In this document: positions 6,001 to 15,000 of the stretch, piece after piece
Position numbering within the stretch: position 1 is the first letter of the stretch
Layout: each line of letters begins with the position of its first letter
Source of the DNA: Escherichia coli
Lineage (GTDB): Bacteria; Pseudomonadota; Gammaproteobacteria; Enterobacterales; Enterobacteriaceae
Length of the DNA: 64,000 bases
Assembly (NCBI RefSeq): GCF_024223415.1
Contig: NZ_CP100500.1
Strand: one strand, 5' to 3'
Made by a program: the position numbers

Positions 6001-9000
6001 CGATCGACCATAAAGACTTTCTGCCGCGCCGCTTCCTCGCTTAATCCTTCGCGCTGGGTCTGGGCGATGATCATTTCGGCAATGCCGCATCCCGCTGAAC
6101 CTGCGCCAAGGAAGACGATTTTTTTCTCGCTTAACTGACCACCTGCCGCGCGGCTTGCTGCGATCAGGGTGCCGACTGTTACCGCCGCAGTGCCCTGAAT
6201 GTCATCGTTAAAGGAACAAATTTCATTGCGATAGCGGTTAAGTAACGGCATCGCATTTTTTTGTGCGAAGTCTTCAAACTGCAACAGCACGTCCGGCCAG
6301 CGTTGTTTCACAGCCTGGATAAATTCATCAACGAATTCATAGTATTCGTCGTCAGTGATACGCGGATTACGCCAGCCCATATACAGCGGATCGTTAAGCA
6401 GCTGTTGGTTGTTGGTGCCGACATCCAGCACCACCGGAAGGGTATACGCCGGGCTGATGCCGCCACAGGCGGTATAGAGCGACAGTTTACCGATCGGAAT
6501 GCCCATCCCGCCGATGCCCTGGTCACCAAGCCCCAGAATACGTTCACCGTCAGTCACCACAATCACTTTGATATTATGGTTTGGTACGTTTTGCAGAATA
6601 TCGTCCATATTGTGGCGGTTCTGGTAAGAAATAAACACGCCGCGTGAACGGCGGTAGATCTCAGAAAAACGCTCACAGGCTGCGCCGACGGTTGGGGTAT
6701 AAATAACAGGCATCATCTCATCAAGATGATTGTTTACCAGACGGTAGAAGAGGGTTTCGTTAGTGTCCTGGATGTTACGCAGGTAGATGTGTTTGTCGAT
6801 TTCGGTTTTGAATCCCTGATACTGGATCCATGCTCGTTCCGCTTGTTCCTCGATGGTTTCGACCACTTCCGGCAGTAACCCCAGCAGGTTGAAGTTACGG
6901 CGTTCTTCCATGCTGAAGGCACTGCCTTTATTTAACAACGGAAATTCCAGCAGTACAGGGCCAGCGTAAGGGATATAAAGCGAACGCTGTTTTTTTGTTT
7001 TTGGTTCCATGTCACTCACTCTTTTTTGAATATCCATCCCTGGGGGGCTTTTATCGTCTTTGCTTTACCGCCAGGGCGTCGGCCCCAAGTATAAAGCAGA
7101 TAAAAACAAAAACACCATTGCGCAGGCAATGGTGTTTAATCGTCATTGAGGACTGATGGTTATGAATTACTTTTCAGCGGGGCGTTTTCTGCCGGTTGGG
7201 TTATTTACCACGCTGGATTTGTCACCTTCGGTAACTATTTTGCGCTGGTTAGATATTTTATGGTCCAGTCCAAGAATATGACGTGCCTGACGGTTCGATT
7301 TCATTTTAACTCCTCAATCCTGTTGCTAGTTTTAAGGACAACATCGCCGTAGCGAAGAAACACGTGCTAAACCCCTAAATTAGGTTGCCGATCAAGCATA
7401 GCATCTTAAAGCGTAGGGTGCTGGCCACTGACCACATAATTGACCGTTTGCTGGTAGATATCACTGAGGATGTCGTTATCAGAAGCTTCCACCCATTTGG
7501 TCAGCTCCATGAGAATGTCATCTTCAGTGACAACACCGTGCTCTGCCCGAAGGCCTTGCTCAATGGCATTAACCAGAGCGGGTTCTGCTGTTGAATTTTC
7601 TGCCTGATAATAAGTAAACATAGTGATTCTCCGTGTCTGTGTATTTATAGTGTCTGCTACGGATCGCAGATTTATAAAGCACATTCAGCATGGCAAATAT
7701 TTGCCGCTTCGTTGTTAAGATTAGTCCTGGTTGATGATTTTTATATTTTAACCACATGATATTGATAGGTATTATTATTGTGGTGAGTTGAATGATATTG
7801 ATGCAATATCTCTTGAGATATATATTCCCGGTAATCTATTGTGGGAATTTAATTTAAGTGCAGAAGTAATATTTTCTGCCGGATTTTATTCGGAATATCC
7901 TGCTTATCCTCGTGCTGTTTCTCACGTAGTCTATAATTTCCTTTTTAAGCCCACAGGAGAGCAACAATGACAATCCATAAGAAAGGTCAGGCACACTGGG
8001 AAGGCGATATCAAACGCGGGAAGGGAACAGTATCCACCGAGAGTGGCGTGCTGAACCAACAGCCGTATGGATTTAACACGCGTTTTGAAGGCGAAAAAGG
8101 AACCAACCCTGAAGAACTGATTGGCGCAGCGCATGCCGCATGTTTCTCAATGGCGCTTTCATTAATGCTGGGGGAAGCGGGATTCACGCCAACATCGATT
8201 GATACCACCGCCGATGTGTCGCTGGATAAAGTGGATGCCGGTTTTGCGATTACGAAAATCGCACTGAAGAGTGAAGTTGCGGTGCCGGGTATTGATGCCT
8301 CTACCTTTGACGGCATCATCCAGAAAGCAAAAGCAGGATGCCCGGTCTCTCAGGTACTGAAAGCGGAAATTACGCTGGATTACCAGTTGAAATCGTAAAG
8401 CGTTGCCGGATGACGCGTCAGGCGCGTGAATGCCTGATGCGTTGTTAGCATCTCTACAGCGCCCGCCAGCACCGGAGCTCACGTCCGTCCTCCCTTATTG
8501 CTAATGATTGCCGGACTTCGCATCCGCTGGTTGAAAGGGGGCAACGTTCGTAGAAAAAACAGCCTTGCGGCAACGTGCGGTTTCCCGGCAGATCCGTTTT
8601 ACGTAATGCCCATTCTTCCTCCAGCGGTTTATCAATGGCGGGGAGGGAATCCAGCAATAATCGGGTGTATGGATGTGCCGGAGCCGTTAGCACCTGTTGC
8701 GCTTCCCCTAATTCCACAATCTGCCCGAGATACATCACCGCTACCCGATCGCTCATATGACGAATCACCGAGACATTGTGTGAGATCAGCACATAGGTCA
8801 GCCCGCGATTTACCTGTAGCGTTACCAGTAAATTGAGGATCTGCGCCTGCACGGAGATATCCAGCGCCGAGGTTGGCTCATCAAGCACAATCACGTCAGG
8901 CTGCGAAGAGAGTGCTCTGGCAATGGCGATGCGTTGCCGCTGCCCGCCGGAGAACGCATGAGGCAGGCGGTCGAGATACTCCGGACGAATACCCACCTGC

Positions 9001-12000: not shown

Positions 12001-15000
12001 CCAGCACCGGACGCCCGGTACGAATGGATGTTCCCAGGTCACCATGAAACAGGTCGCTGACGTAGCGGTAAAACTGTACATACAGTGGCTGGTCCAGTCC
12101 CAGTTGCTGGCGAATATTTTCCACGATAGCATCGCTGGCGCGGTCACCCGCCAATAACCGCGTCGGATCGCCGGGGATCAGATGCGAGATAATAAACGTA
12201 ATCACACAGACCCCCGCCATCACGAGCACCAGCCCCCAGCAGCGTTGGCGTAAAATACTCCAGAAGGTCACGTTATTTACTCATGGTATTGATATTGAAG
12301 ACCTGTTCCAGCATGGGATTGAACACAAAGCCTTTCACCTCTTTGTTCATCGCCAGTTGGTAGTTTTTCTGGAACAGGTACACATAAGCAGCGTCATCAA
12401 TGACGATTTTCTGTGCCTGCTGGTAGTCCCGGGTACGCTGCGTCTGGTCGGTGGTCGCGAGCGCATTGCGTAGTAACTTATCGACCTCACTGTTTTCATA
12501 GAACGAGCGGTTACCCGGCAGACCTTTTTTGTCTGACTCAAACCAGTAATTCATAAACATATACGGGTCGGCAAAATCCGGGCTCCAGTTGCCAATCGCA
12601 ATGTCGTAATCACCTTTACCCACTCTGTCGCGCATGGTGGCGTTCGCCAGCTTTTCCAGCTTCACATTGATGCCCAGCTTGTTGAGACTGGATTGTGTTG
12701 CCAGAGCAATAGGCTCCCAGTTCGGATCATTATCAGAATAGAGAAACGTCAGGCTGGTGGGTTTGCTCTTCACTTTATCCCATTCGGCTTTGGCTTTCGT
12801 TTCGTCATGGTTGTATTGCATTGCCGTCGCATCGTAGCCCCACATGCCTTCCGGAATCGGGCCGCGCATCTGTTTTCCGTTACCACTCAGAATGCCGTTA
12901 ACCATGCCCTGATAATCGGTAGACCAGGAAATGGCCCGCCGCAGATCCGCCTGATTAAGTGGCGCTTTGCTGTTATTCAGATACAGATAGGTGACGCGCA
13001 GTGACGGATACTCTGCCACATTGACTTTATTTTCCTGCTTCAGGGCGTTGAGTTGATCCACCGGCAGCGCATCGGCAATGTCAATGTCGCCACGGGAGAG
13101 CTGCAGGCGACGGGAGGCACTTTCACCGATAATTTTTACCGATACTCGCTTAAAGTTCGGTTTATTGCCGGAGTAATGCGGATTTGGCACCAGAACTAAT
13201 TGCTGACCTTTTTGCCAGCTTTTCAGCATAAACGGTCCGGAGCCAGCGGTATTTTGCGCGAGGAAGCTGCGGGCATCATCCGCCGCATGTTCCTTTAACA
13301 CCGCCGGATTGATAATGGATGCACCGTCATTCGCCAGCGTGTAGAGGAACGGTGCAAATGGCTGGCTAAGGGTAAACTTCACCGTATGTTCGTCGGGAGC
13401 ATCAATCTTTAAATCTTTGGGAAATGCTTCTGCTGGCCCCTGGCCGATTTTTAGTAGCCGCTCAAAAGAAAGTTTTACTGCTTCGGCAGTGACAGGTGTG
13501 CCATCGGCAAATTTAGCATTATCTTTCAGGGTGAACGTCCACTCTTTTTGATCGTCAGACGCTTTCCAGCTACTTGCCAGATCGCCTTCAACGTCGGTTG
13601 AGCCTTTATCACCGTCCGTTTTGTACTGAACCAGCCGCTGATAAGACGGGTAGGTCACTGTCCAGTCGTTATTATCTATTGTTACCGCCGGGTCGAGGGT
13701 TTGTGGATCGGCGGCCTTACCAATCACCAGCATATCTTTCGGTACGGCGGCGTGCGCAACCGGGAAAGTTGTGGCAAGGACGAGCGCGAGCAATGTGGGA
13801 CGAAACGATATCGATCTCTTCATGACAGTTTCCTGATTAACTGACGTGCTGTGTGCCAGGGGATATAAAACAAGAGAATTGATCAGCGAGCAGTGGGTAA
13901 CTCGCTGCCTGGGGTAATTCGAAGTGCCACCATTCGCTGGAGATACCGACAAAACCGCCACCAGTCATAATCGCATTCAGCAACAGCCGATTGCGCTGAG
14001 CGGCGGGCGGGACGGAAGGATGGTAAGCATGGGAGCGCTCGTGCATTTCATCGAACCCTGCGCCCATATCGAGGATGTTCCCGTGCTCATCACGAAGCGT
14101 CAGGTCGATCGCCGTGCCACGGCTGTGATTAGAACCGACCGTCACATCAACAACATATTGCGGGTCTGGGCAGGCTTGCCACAACATCGCCTGTGCTTGT
14201 TGTGGGCGATACGCATCGTAAATCACCAGTTGTAAGCCTGATAGCTGGGCGATACTGATACTTTTCGCCAGCGCGGTAATCGCATCCTTGTGTAACAGAC
14301 AACGCGCTTGCTGGTAAATAGCTTTACCTGTGATGTTATCAGCGCAGGCGTATTTCAATTCGATCTCCAGATCAGGGAAGATCACGGCTAAATCAACCAG
14401 TTCGGTGGTATCCGACATAAACGGTTCCTGTATAAGACAAAAATTGCTGCGCTTTCCGCTTATGCAGATCTCATGCCATGCCGGGATAAGCGCCAGAATG
14501 CTGGCTTAAAGTTATATTTTTTAACTTTTGATCAACATTTGTGCAGCGTAGTGCAGTTTTGGTGCAAGAGGGGAAGTTAAGGAAGGAATCTCCCGGAATC
14601 GTAGCTGAAATCACAGTATTTAAGTGACAGTGTCACGTTAAATGAAAACCCGCGAGTGCGGGCGAGAGGAATTTGTCAGATTTTCAGCGGTAACACGCTG
14701 CTCATCCAGCCTGGAATTTCTTCGGCGGGTAGGGGGCGGGAAAAGAAATATCCCTGAATAACGCGACAGTGGATCTTGCGTAGCATCTCAAATTGCTCTT
14801 TGGTTTCGACGCCTTCCGCCACGACGGTTAAATTGAGGCTTTGCCCAATGCTGGTAATGGCTTCAAGTAAGGCAAGGATGCGTTTTTCCGTCAGACAACG
14901 ATCGACAAAACTTTTGTCAATTTTGATTTCCGTTACCGGAAGACTGACTAAGCGGGATAATCCGGAAAAGCCCGTGCCAAAATCATCTACCGATAAACCC

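What the first reader, a model, noticed from the sequence alone, without database searches (positions are those of the whole stretch)
8454..14418. ddp operon: VanX-type D-Ala-D-Ala dipeptidase coupled to a dipeptide ABC importer with overlapping genes
ddpX is followed by a periplasmic binding protein, two permeases and two ATPases. ddpB/ddpC and ddpC/ddpD overlap by 4 nt and ddpD/ddpF by 8 nt, suggesting tight translational coupling. This is a known starvation system that scavenges D-Ala-D-Ala, notable as a vancomycin-resistance-type enzyme in a housekeeping role.
Basis: partly seen in the sequence, partly recalled or inferred. Interest (0 to 1): 0.2.

Follow-up and report, generated by a model that had tools for sequence, protein, structure and literature searches.

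The report
E. coli ddpXABCDF D-Ala-D-Ala scavenging operon
This is the well-known E. coli ddpXABCDF operon, a D-Ala-D-Ala-cleaving enzyme plus a peptide-type ABC importer switched on by nitrogen starvation and stationary phase, so the finding is correct but ordinary.

Summary
On the minus strand lie ddpX (13837-14418), ddpA (12273-13823), ddpB (11249-12271), ddpC (10356-11252), ddpD (9373-10359) and ddpF (8454-9380). B/C and C/D overlap by 4 nt (ATGA) and D/F by 8 nt. The DNA matches annotated E. coli chromosomes at 100%. DdpX is identical to the K-12 protein, and so is the 257-nt upstream region.

A sigma-54 -24/-12 element at 14463-14479 is letter-identical to a published ChIP-seq-bound site. 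Published work shows NtrC and RpoN binding and nitrogen-starvation induction, and RpoS dependence is also reported.

DdpX keeps every VanX catalytic residue checked. The claim that the transporter carries D-Ala-D-Ala remains an inference from gene context.

Three side observations:
- Relatives in Citrobacter and more distant bacteria carry a SapR-like RpiR-family regulator gene between the same promoter and ddpX. E. coli lacks it.
- About one fifth of complete E. coli genomes have deleted the whole operon.
- 'Housekeeping' is therefore a poor label for it.

Verdict: already known, low interest.

The parts
8399..8442 (.). REP-like G+C-rich hairpin between the convergent osmC and ddpF genes; probable shared 3' end / mRNA stabiliser. 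It is also the left edge of the ddp deletion seen in other strains.
   Evidence: RNA fold -25.7 kcal/mol, z = -3.43; homology with ddp-less strains stops at 8442. REP membership was not formally tested; my own ad hoc pattern gave no match.
8454..9380 (-). ddpF, ABC ATPase (308 aa, GTG start); Walker A GESGCGKS, signature FSGG, Walker B VIVLDE; C-terminal oligo_HPY domain with Cys274/280/287/304.
   Evidence: The Cys spacing x5/x6/x16 equals that of the [4Fe-4S] ligands of E. coli DppF. Citrobacter uses an ATG at the same position.
9373..10359 (-). ddpD, ABC ATPase (328 aa); Walker A GESGSGKS, signature LSGG; oligo_HPY domain with Cys287/293/300/318.
   Evidence: The Cys spacing x5/x6/x17 equals that of the DppD [4Fe-4S] ligands.
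10356..11252 (-). ddpC, permease (298 aa), OppC_N + BPD_transp_1.
   Evidence: Passes NCBIfam NF007376 'D,D-dipeptide ABC transporter permease', 625.7 bits against cut-off 434; Pfam; multiple hydrophobic segments.
11249..12271 (-). ddpB, permease (340 aa, GTG start), BPD_transp_1_N + BPD_transp_1.
   Evidence: Best NCBIfam matches (Opp2B, DppB) are below their cut-offs.
12273..13823 (-). ddpA, periplasmic family-5 solute-binding protein (516 aa) with signal peptide MKRSISFRPTLLALVLATTFPVAHA.
   Evidence: Pfam SBP_bac_5, E = 6e-102; no NCBIfam equivalog passed; N-terminal hydrophobic segment 9-28. Asp416 aligns with the ligand-amino-binding Asp436 of DppA, but DppA Arg383 aligns with a Ser.
13837..14418 (-). 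ddpX, cytoplasmic zinc D-Ala-D-Ala dipeptidase (193 aa), identical to the K-12 protein.
   Evidence: NF007557 334.7 bits against 176; PF01427 E = 3e-79. Y23, R71, H98, D105, E162 and H165 align with VanX Y21, R71, H116, D123, E181 and H184. No aa differences from K-12; no hydrophobic N-terminus.
14419..14452 (-). Predicted 34-nt 5' UTR carrying the ddpX Shine-Dalgarno (AGGA).
   Evidence: The -12 GC at 14465-14464 places +1 near 14452. The published table gives 34 nt from predicted start to the gene. Sequence read.
14463..14479 (-). Sigma-54 (RpoN) promoter, ATGGCATGAGATCTGCA, with -24 GG and -12 GC.
   Evidence: Found. Identical to ChIP-seq site OS16 assigned to ddpX in PMC4591121. The whole 257-nt intergenic region is identical to K-12.
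14507..14567 (-). Conserved upstream block with three TGCAC repeats (TTGCACCAAAACTGCACTACGCTGCACAAATG...) followed by an A/T-rich tract; candidate enhancer (NtrC) region.
   Evidence: 84% identical (51/61, E = 4e-15) to Citrobacter DNA at the same position relative to its sigma-54 motif. NtrC binding to the ddpX promoter fragment is reported. The exact NtrC sites were not resolved here: the palindromic consensus gave no hit at 3 mismatches or fewer.
14648..14663 (-). dosP intrinsic terminator (GCCCGC-ACTC-GCGGGT + TTTTCATTT). It marks the upstream boundary of the ddp transcription unit.

Best explanation
The region is the E. coli ddpXABCDF operon. Shown elsewhere, for DNA identical to this window: under nitrogen limitation NtrC activates RNA polymerase-sigma-54 at the -24/-12 element (14463-14479). 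Expression also depends on RpoS in stationary phase. Inferred from here on. One mRNA starting near 14452 encodes a cytoplasmic zinc dipeptidase (DdpX), a periplasmic binding protein (DdpA), two permeases (DdpB, DdpC) and two ATPases (DdpD, DdpF) that probably each hold a [4Fe-4S] cluster. DdpA captures D-Ala-D-Ala, or a close relative of it, in the periplasm, and DdpBCDF imports it at the cost of ATP. DdpX splits it into two D-alanines, which D-amino-acid dehydrogenase can convert to pyruvate and ammonium, giving nitrogen, carbon and energy. DdpX would destroy the D-Ala-D-Ala needed for cell-wall synthesis, so expression is confined to non-growing, starved cells. The ATGA, ATGA and GTGTCTGA overlaps, each preceded by a strong Shine-Dalgarno inside the upstream gene, probably couple translation of the four membrane-complex subunits. 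ddpX and ddpA are initiated independently.
For: - Identity: 100% match to annotated E. coli ddp loci. The region is present in 5,411 of 5,426 genomes, full-length in 4,270.
- Family tests.
- DdpX: catalytic residues conserved against VanX structure 1R44.
- ATPases: ABC motifs and a four-Cys motif with the spacing of the DppD/DppF [4Fe-4S] ligands.
- DdpA: signal peptide present, and Asp416 equals DppA Asp436.
- Promoter: the sigma-54 site is identical to the ChIP-seq-bound ddpX site with a 34-nt leader. There is an NtrC ChIP-seq peak at ddpXABCDF. Gel shifts with NtrC and RpoN holoenzyme, and RT-qPCR induction of ddpX (104.5-fold) and ddpF (2.2-fold) on nitrogen depletion, which the authors attribute to RpoN and NtrC. 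ddpXA is RpoS-dependent in EDL933. The intergenic region is identical to K-12.
- Transcription unit: a dosP terminator lies upstream.
- Context: dipeptidase plus family-5 ABC synteny is conserved down to 44% DdpX identity. B. pseudomallei has the same module, co-regulated.
- Toxicity: DdpX activity is described as potentially lethal.
Against: - No direct evidence that DdpABCDF transports D-Ala-D-Ala. The literature calls it 'putative' or 'thought to'.
- DdpA, DdpB, DdpD and DdpF pass no substrate-specific NCBIfam model, and DdpA's top-scoring models are nickel and dipeptide binders below cut-off.
- The DppA carboxylate-binding Arg383 aligns with Ser in DdpA.
- ddpX and ddpF respond very unequally (104.5-fold against 2.2-fold). 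Simple co-transcription does not explain this.
- The sigma-54 pattern alone is not enriched in the window (10 matches against 13.35 expected), so the promoter call rests on position plus published binding data.
- No RpoS or sigma-70-type promoter was located.
- Translational coupling is untested, and strong individual Shine-Dalgarno sequences would also allow independent initiation.
Confidence: 0.86

Rival explanations
1. The transporter's natural cargo is not D-Ala-D-Ala but another small nitrogen-containing ligand, such as other dipeptides, D-amino-acid peptides or cell-wall fragments. DdpX would then mainly hydrolyse the cell's own cytoplasmic D-Ala-D-Ala pool once growth stops.
For: DdpA passes no specific family cut-off. 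Its best solved relative is an uncharacterised binding protein, and its other relatives bind heme, agropinic acid, dipeptides or nickel. The DppA Arg383 equivalent is not conserved. The literature treats the substrate as presumed. More distant DdpX homologues sit beside other ABC transporter types, SBP_bac_3 and SBP_bac_8.
Against: Tight dipeptidase plus family-5 ABC synteny runs from E. coli through 44%-identity relatives to Burkholderia. The ligand-amino-binding Asp is kept. DdpC passes the curated D,D-dipeptide permease model, although that model is named from this same operon.
Confidence: 0.15
2. The gene overlaps are plain genome compaction without regulatory meaning. Each cistron is translated independently from its own Shine-Dalgarno.
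For: GGAGGTG, AGGAGG and AGGAGG motifs precede ddpC, ddpD and ddpF. Overlaps of 8 nt and 1 nt occur in unrelated neighbouring operons. The exact overlaps are not kept in the distant L007 operon.
Against: The same 4/4/8 pattern is kept in Citrobacter despite 6-21% protein divergence. The overlaps are confined to the four subunits that assemble 1:1:1:1, the classic setting for coupling (established knowledge, not tested here).
Confidence: 0.3
3. The locus is a vancomycin-resistance or self-immunity determinant like vanHAX.
For: DdpX is homologous to VanX over residues 18-170 with all the catalytic residues checked conserved.
Against: DdpX fails the VanX equivalog model (93.9 bits against cut-off 320). 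No D-Ala-D-Lac ligase, dehydrogenase or VanRS genes are annotated in the surrounding 50 kb. The operon is chromosomal in nearly all E. coli and is regulated by nitrogen and stationary-phase signals.
Confidence: 0.01

Closest known systems
E. coli K-12 ddpXABCDF (b1488-b1483), sigma-54/NtrC- and RpoS-controlled
   Same: Same genes, order, lengths, junctions and flanks (osmC and dosP). DdpX is 100% identical, the other five proteins differ by 1-6 residues each, and the 257-nt promoter region is identical.
   Different: Only allelic differences, 4-30 nt per gene.
[quoted passage not shown]
   Same: Same M15 fold family and the same zinc ligands and catalytic Glu, Arg and Tyr.
   Different: Below the VanX equivalog cut-off, with no vanH/vanA partners. 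It is linked to an importer and to starvation regulation rather than to glycopeptide sensing.
E. coli DppABCDF dipeptide permease (cryo-EM 8Z1Y; PMC12136057)
   Same: Same five-component architecture, the same four-Cys [4Fe-4S] motif spacing in both ATPases, and the same ligand-amino-binding Asp in the binding protein.
   Different: The Ddp proteins score well below the Dpp equivalog cut-offs. The carboxylate-binding Arg383 of DppA is not conserved in the alignment. The operon also includes a dipeptidase and uses a sigma-54 promoter.
sapR-ddp-like modules (Burkholderia pseudomallei BP1026B_II1046-II1040; Citrobacter and others)
   Same: Same dipeptidase, binding protein, two permeases and two ATPases. 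Citrobacter and L007 have a sigma-54-type motif upstream.
   Different: They carry a SapR-like RpiR-family regulator gene directly upstream of the dipeptidase gene. E. coli has none.

Membership tests
M15 D-Ala-D-Ala dipeptidase (Pfam PF01427; NCBIfam NF007557 DdpX-type) | Profile match above the curated cut-off | tested here: met
   PF01427 265.9 bits against 27; NF007557 334.7 bits against 176.
M15 D-Ala-D-Ala dipeptidase (Pfam PF01427; NCBIfam NF007557 DdpX-type) | Zinc ligands His-Asp-His plus catalytic Glu and substrate-binding Arg/Tyr as in VanX | tested here: met
   H98/D105/H165, E162, R71 and Y23 align with VanX H116/D123/H184, E181, R71 and Y21. The VanX residue roles are from my own knowledge of the 1R44 literature.
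M15 D-Ala-D-Ala dipeptidase (Pfam PF01427; NCBIfam NF007557 DdpX-type) | Hydrolysis of D-Ala-D-Ala | not testable with these tools
   Reported for the identical K-12 protein by Lessard et al. 1998, cited. The original paper is not held.
VanX proper (NCBIfam NF033115, resistance enzyme) | Equivalog score of at least 320 bits and linkage to vanH/vanA | tested here: not met
   93.9 bits; no van genes in the neighbourhood.
Opp/Dpp-type peptide ABC importer | Family-5 binding protein with signal peptide, two BPD_transp_1 permeases and two ATPases with an oligo_HPY C-terminal domain | tested here: met
Opp/Dpp-type peptide ABC importer | Intact Walker A, Q-loop, signature, Walker B and H-loop motifs in the ATPases | tested here: met
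   The DdpD Walker B reads IIADEP in the translation; my stricter regular expression missed it.
Opp/Dpp-type peptide ABC importer | Four-Cys [4Fe-4S] motif in each ATPase C-terminus | tested here: met
   DdpD C287/293/300/318 and DdpF C274/280/287/304 have the same spacing as DppD C284/290/297/315 and DppF C293/299/306/323. Cluster binding itself was not tested.
Opp/Dpp-type peptide ABC importer | Salt-bridge pair in the binding protein for the peptide amino and carboxyl groups (DppA D436 / R383) | tested here: inconclusive
   The Asp is conserved (D416). The Arg position aligns with Ser next to an alignment gap.
D,D-dipeptide-specific transporter (Ddp) | Transport or binding of D-Ala-D-Ala | not testable with these tools
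   Only DdpC passes a ddp-named model (NF007376, 625.7 bits against 434). The literature calls the function putative.
Sigma-54-dependent, NtrC-activated promoter | -24 GG and -12 GC with canonical spacing, correctly oriented upstream of the first gene | tested here: met
   ATGGCATGAGATCTGCA at 14463-14479, identical to the ChIP-seq-bound site.
Sigma-54-dependent, NtrC-activated promoter | Upstream enhancer sites for the activator | tested here: inconclusive
   The palindromic NtrC consensus has no match at 3 mismatches or fewer in the intergenic region. A conserved TGCAC-repeat block is present at 14507-14567. NtrC binding is shown experimentally elsewhere.
SapR-regulated ddp-like module | SapR-like RpiR-family regulator gene adjacent to the dipeptidase gene | tested here: not met
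   Absent from the window (tblastn) and from 5,426 E. coli genomes. Present in Citrobacter, L007, L008 and L011.

The most novel reading that the evidence does not exclude
E. coli's ddp operon is a trimmed derivative of an older seven-gene module, sapR-like regulator plus ddpXABCDF. An internal deletion removed the roughly 870-bp regulator gene but kept the sigma-54 promoter and its conserved upstream block, fusing them directly to ddpX. Control now rests on NtrC/sigma-54 and RpoS alone. The operon looks dispensable in E. coli, since about one genome in five has deleted it and retains only a 62-nt ddpF scrap.
Probability: 0.7. Interest if true: 0.25.

Novelty: already known. Interest (0 to 1): 0.12.

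Why it matters
The operon is a textbook case of a vancomycin-resistance-type enzyme used for nutrition, and confirming it adds nothing new. Two loose ends have modest value. First, the transporter's substrate has never been shown directly, and DdpA lacks the carboxylate-clamping arginine of DppA in the sequence alignment. Second, E. coli appears to have lost a dedicated SapR-type regulator that relatives keep. That loss offers a small natural experiment in rewiring an operon from local to global control. It may also help explain why the operon is easily lost in some lineages.

Tried and rejected
- An Rfam scan of 7000-17500 at E <= 1 found no RNA family.
- The sigma-70 consensus scan found no promoter in 7900-14800, against 6.4 expected, so no RpoS or sigma-70-type start could be placed.
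- A window-wide sigma-54 pattern count is not above chance (10 against 13.35). Pattern matching alone was rejected as evidence, and the promoter call rests on position and published binding data.
- The palindromic NtrC consensus gave no hit in the intergenic region.
- The original Lessard/Walsh and Zimmer papers are not in the held library, so secondary citations were used.
- An ad hoc REP pattern gave no match, so the hairpin is called only 'REP-like'.
- A vancomycin-resistance reading was rejected: the VanX equivalog is failed and no van partners are present.
- A dosP frameshift suggested by the annotation of the matching record is not in the window. dosP aligns to K-12 over 2,400 nt without gaps.
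- The antisense ORFs in the mechanical list, for example 11663-12157 on the plus strand, were not examined further. They lie wholly inside annotated genes and are absent from the RefSeq annotation.

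
Full report
**What is there.** The interval 8454-14418 holds six consecutive minus-strand genes:

| Gene | Coordinates | Length | Start codon |
|---|---|---|---|
| ddpX | 13837-14418 | 193 aa | ATG |
| ddpA | 12273-13823 | 516 aa | ATG |
| ddpB | 11249-12271 | 340 aa | GTG |
| ddpC | 10356-11252 | 298 aa | ATG |
| ddpD | 9373-10359 | 328 aa | ATG |
| ddpF | 8454-9380 | 308 aa | GTG |

Window 8000-15000 is 100% identical to several annotated E. coli chromosomes, which give exactly these gene limits and names. The mechanical ORF list starts ddpA at a GTG at 13961. The annotated ATG at 13823 is the credible start, because it has an AGGA Shine-Dalgarno and opens a typical signal peptide.

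**The overlaps.** Read directly from the sequence, the junctions are:
- ddpX/ddpA: 13-nt spacer.
- ddpA/ddpB: 1-nt spacer.
- ddpB/ddpC: ATGA, 4-nt overlap.
- ddpC/ddpD: ATGA, 4-nt overlap.
- ddpD/ddpF: GTGTCTGA, 8-nt overlap.

Each overlapped gene also has a strong Shine-Dalgarno inside the preceding gene (GGAGGTG, AGGAGG, AGGAGG). Overlaps of this kind are ordinary: within the same 50 kb, fdnH/fdnI overlap by 8 nt and hipB/hipA by 1 nt. The 4/4/8 pattern is kept in Citrobacter, where the proteins are 79-94% identical. There both GTG starts are ATG at the same positions, which supports the E. coli start assignments. A more distant operon has a 1-nt overlap, a 2-nt gap and a 4-nt overlap instead. 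Tight packing of the four membrane-complex subunits is thus conserved and fits translational coupling. Coupling itself is inferred, not shown.

**The proteins.**
- **DdpX.** It passes the NCBIfam D-alanyl-D-alanine dipeptidase equivalog (334.7 bits against 176) and Pfam Peptidase_M15, but not the VanX equivalog (93.9 against 320). Aligned with the VanX structure 1R44, it keeps Tyr23, Arg71, His98, Asp105, Glu162 and His165. These correspond to VanX Tyr21, Arg71, His116, Asp123, Glu181 and His184. It has no hydrophobic N-terminus, so it is cytoplasmic.
- **DdpA.** It is a family-5 binding protein with a signal peptide.
- **DdpB and DdpC.** They are BPD_transp_1 permeases.
- **DdpD and DdpF.** They are ABC ATPases with the oligo_HPY tail. 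Both carry four cysteines spaced exactly like the [4Fe-4S] ligands of E. coli DppD and DppF.
- **Specificity.** Only DdpC passes a ddp-specific model. DdpA, DdpB, DdpD and DdpF fall below every equivalog cut-off.
- **Binding pocket.** No structure of DdpA exists, and its closest solved relative is an uncharacterised binding protein. In the alignment with DppA, the aspartate that holds the peptide amino group is conserved (Asp416 = DppA Asp436). The arginine that holds the carboxylate (Arg383) aligns with a serine beside a gap.

**Regulation.**
- **Sigma-54 promoter.** ATGGCATGAGATCTGCA lies at 14463-14479 on the coding strand. It is letter-identical to sigma-54 ChIP-seq site OS16, which PMC4591121 assigns to ddpX with a 34-nt distance to the gene. 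In the window that places +1 near 14452.
- **Limits of the pattern.** The pattern alone is not enriched in the window (10 matches against 13.35 expected). The call rests on position and on the published binding.
- **Transfer from K-12.** The entire 257-nt intergenic region is identical to K-12, so K-12 results apply. There is an NtrC ChIP-seq peak at ddpXABCDF (PMC4066584). PMC8743547 reports gel shifts with NtrC and RpoN holoenzyme, and RT-qPCR induction of ddpX (104.5-fold) and ddpF (2.2-fold) on nitrogen depletion, which its authors attribute to RpoN and NtrC.
- **RpoS.** ddpXA is listed as RpoS-dependent in EDL933 (PMC2907692).
- **Transcription unit boundaries.** A dosP terminator hairpin at 14648-14663 separates the unit from dosCP. 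A stable REP-like hairpin at 8399-8442 lies between ddpF and the convergent osmC.
- **What was not found.** I could not place individual NtrC sites or an RpoS/sigma-70-type promoter.

**Mechanism.**
- **Shown elsewhere for identical DNA or protein:** sigma-54/NtrC binding and induction, RpoS dependence, and D-Ala-D-Ala hydrolysis by DdpX (Lessard et al. 1998).
- **Inferred:** DdpA binds D-Ala-D-Ala in the periplasm, DdpBCDF imports it, and DdpX cleaves it. D-alanine is then oxidised to pyruvate and ammonium by D-amino-acid dehydrogenase (established pathway knowledge). Expression is restricted to starved cells because DdpX would otherwise deplete a cell-wall precursor.
- **Weak link:** the transporter's substrate. 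The literature calls the permease 'putative' and 'thought to' recognise D-Ala-D-Ala.
- **Support from context:** dipeptidase plus family-5 ABC synteny persists down to 44% DdpX identity. The same module is co-regulated in Burkholderia pseudomallei. More distant DdpX homologues sit beside other transporter types.

**Side finding 1: a missing regulator.**
- **Present in relatives.** An RpiR-family gene lies directly upstream of the dipeptidase gene in Citrobacter, in a 62% G+C genome (L007) and in two metagenome contigs. The two tested, from Citrobacter and L007, score 373 and 421 bits on NCBIfam SapR, below the 500-bit cut-off but over full length. In B. pseudomallei SapR activates the adjacent ddp-like genes (PMC9884982).
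- **Absent from E. coli.** The gene is not in the window or in any of 5,426 complete genomes.
- **Colinear remains.** E. coli 14507-14567 is 84% identical to Citrobacter DNA upstream of the regulator gene. A sigma-54 motif follows colinearly in both. The last bases before the ddpX ATG resemble the Citrobacter spacer between the regulator's end and ddpX.
- **Reading.** The parsimonious interpretation is that E. coli deleted the regulator gene and kept the promoter.

**Side finding 2: loss of the operon.** Only 4,270 of 5,411 matching genomes hold most of the region. In the sampled remainder osmC abuts dosP. In one such strain homology stops at window 8442 and resumes at 14597. A 62-nt piece between them is 82% identical to the inside of ddpF (8884-8945). 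The ddp-less state is therefore a deletion, not the ancestral condition. Some E. coli strains, and Citrobacter, carry a LysR/CoA-transferase/thiolase cluster beside ddpF.

**Verdict.** The system is already known, and interest is low.

Noticed in passing
window 14419-14600; L004 7947-9003; L007 7056-8001; L008 1361-2212; L011 5071-5919: Relatives of the operon carry a SapR-like RpiR-family regulator gene between a sigma-54-type promoter and ddpX. E. coli keeps the homologous promoter and upstream block but has no regulator gene, which suggests an internal deletion.
   Followed up: partly
window 8443-14596; L002 3443-3510: About one fifth of complete E. coli genomes lack the whole ddp operon, promoter included. 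osmC abuts dosP, and a 62-nt remnant is 82% identical to ddpF 8884-8945. Phylogroup distribution was not determined.
   Followed up: partly
L003 1-3964; L004 15057-18588: Some E. coli strains and Citrobacter have a LysR regulator plus CoA-transferase and thiolase genes inserted next to ddpF, so the osmC-ddpF junction is a variable spot.
   Followed up: no
window 8399-8442: A REP-like G+C-rich hairpin (-25.7 kcal/mol, z = -3.4) lies between the convergent osmC and ddpF genes and coincides with the left deletion boundary.
   Followed up: partly
window 14624-14636: A near-perfect 13-bp palindrome, GTGACACTGTCAC, sits just downstream of the dosP terminator and is retained in ddp-less strains. Function unknown.
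   Followed up: no
window 14676-17075: dosP is intact in the window (2,400 nt, no gaps against K-12). The record that is 100% identical over 8000-15000 (NZ_CP084096.1) annotates dosP as frameshifted, so the window is either a different strain or that assembly has a 1-nt error.
   Followed up: yes
window 8454-14418 (literature): Published RT-qPCR shows ddpX induced 104.5-fold but ddpF only 2.2-fold on nitrogen depletion. This strong polarity has no obvious internal terminator, since the ddpX/ddpA and ddpA/ddpB spacers are 13 nt and 1 nt.
   Followed up: no
window 8454-10359 (DdpD residues 287-318, DdpF residues 274-304): Both ATPases keep a C-x5-C-x6-C-x16/17-C motif matching the [4Fe-4S] ligands of E. 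coli DppD/DppF, which implies a redox-sensitive assembly for Ddp as well.
   Followed up: partly
window 12273-13823 (DdpA around residue 365, 'LYSDNDPN'): The DppA arginine that clamps the dipeptide carboxylate (Arg383) aligns with a serine in DdpA, while the amino-binding aspartate is conserved. This hints at a different binding geometry or a different ligand.
   Followed up: partly
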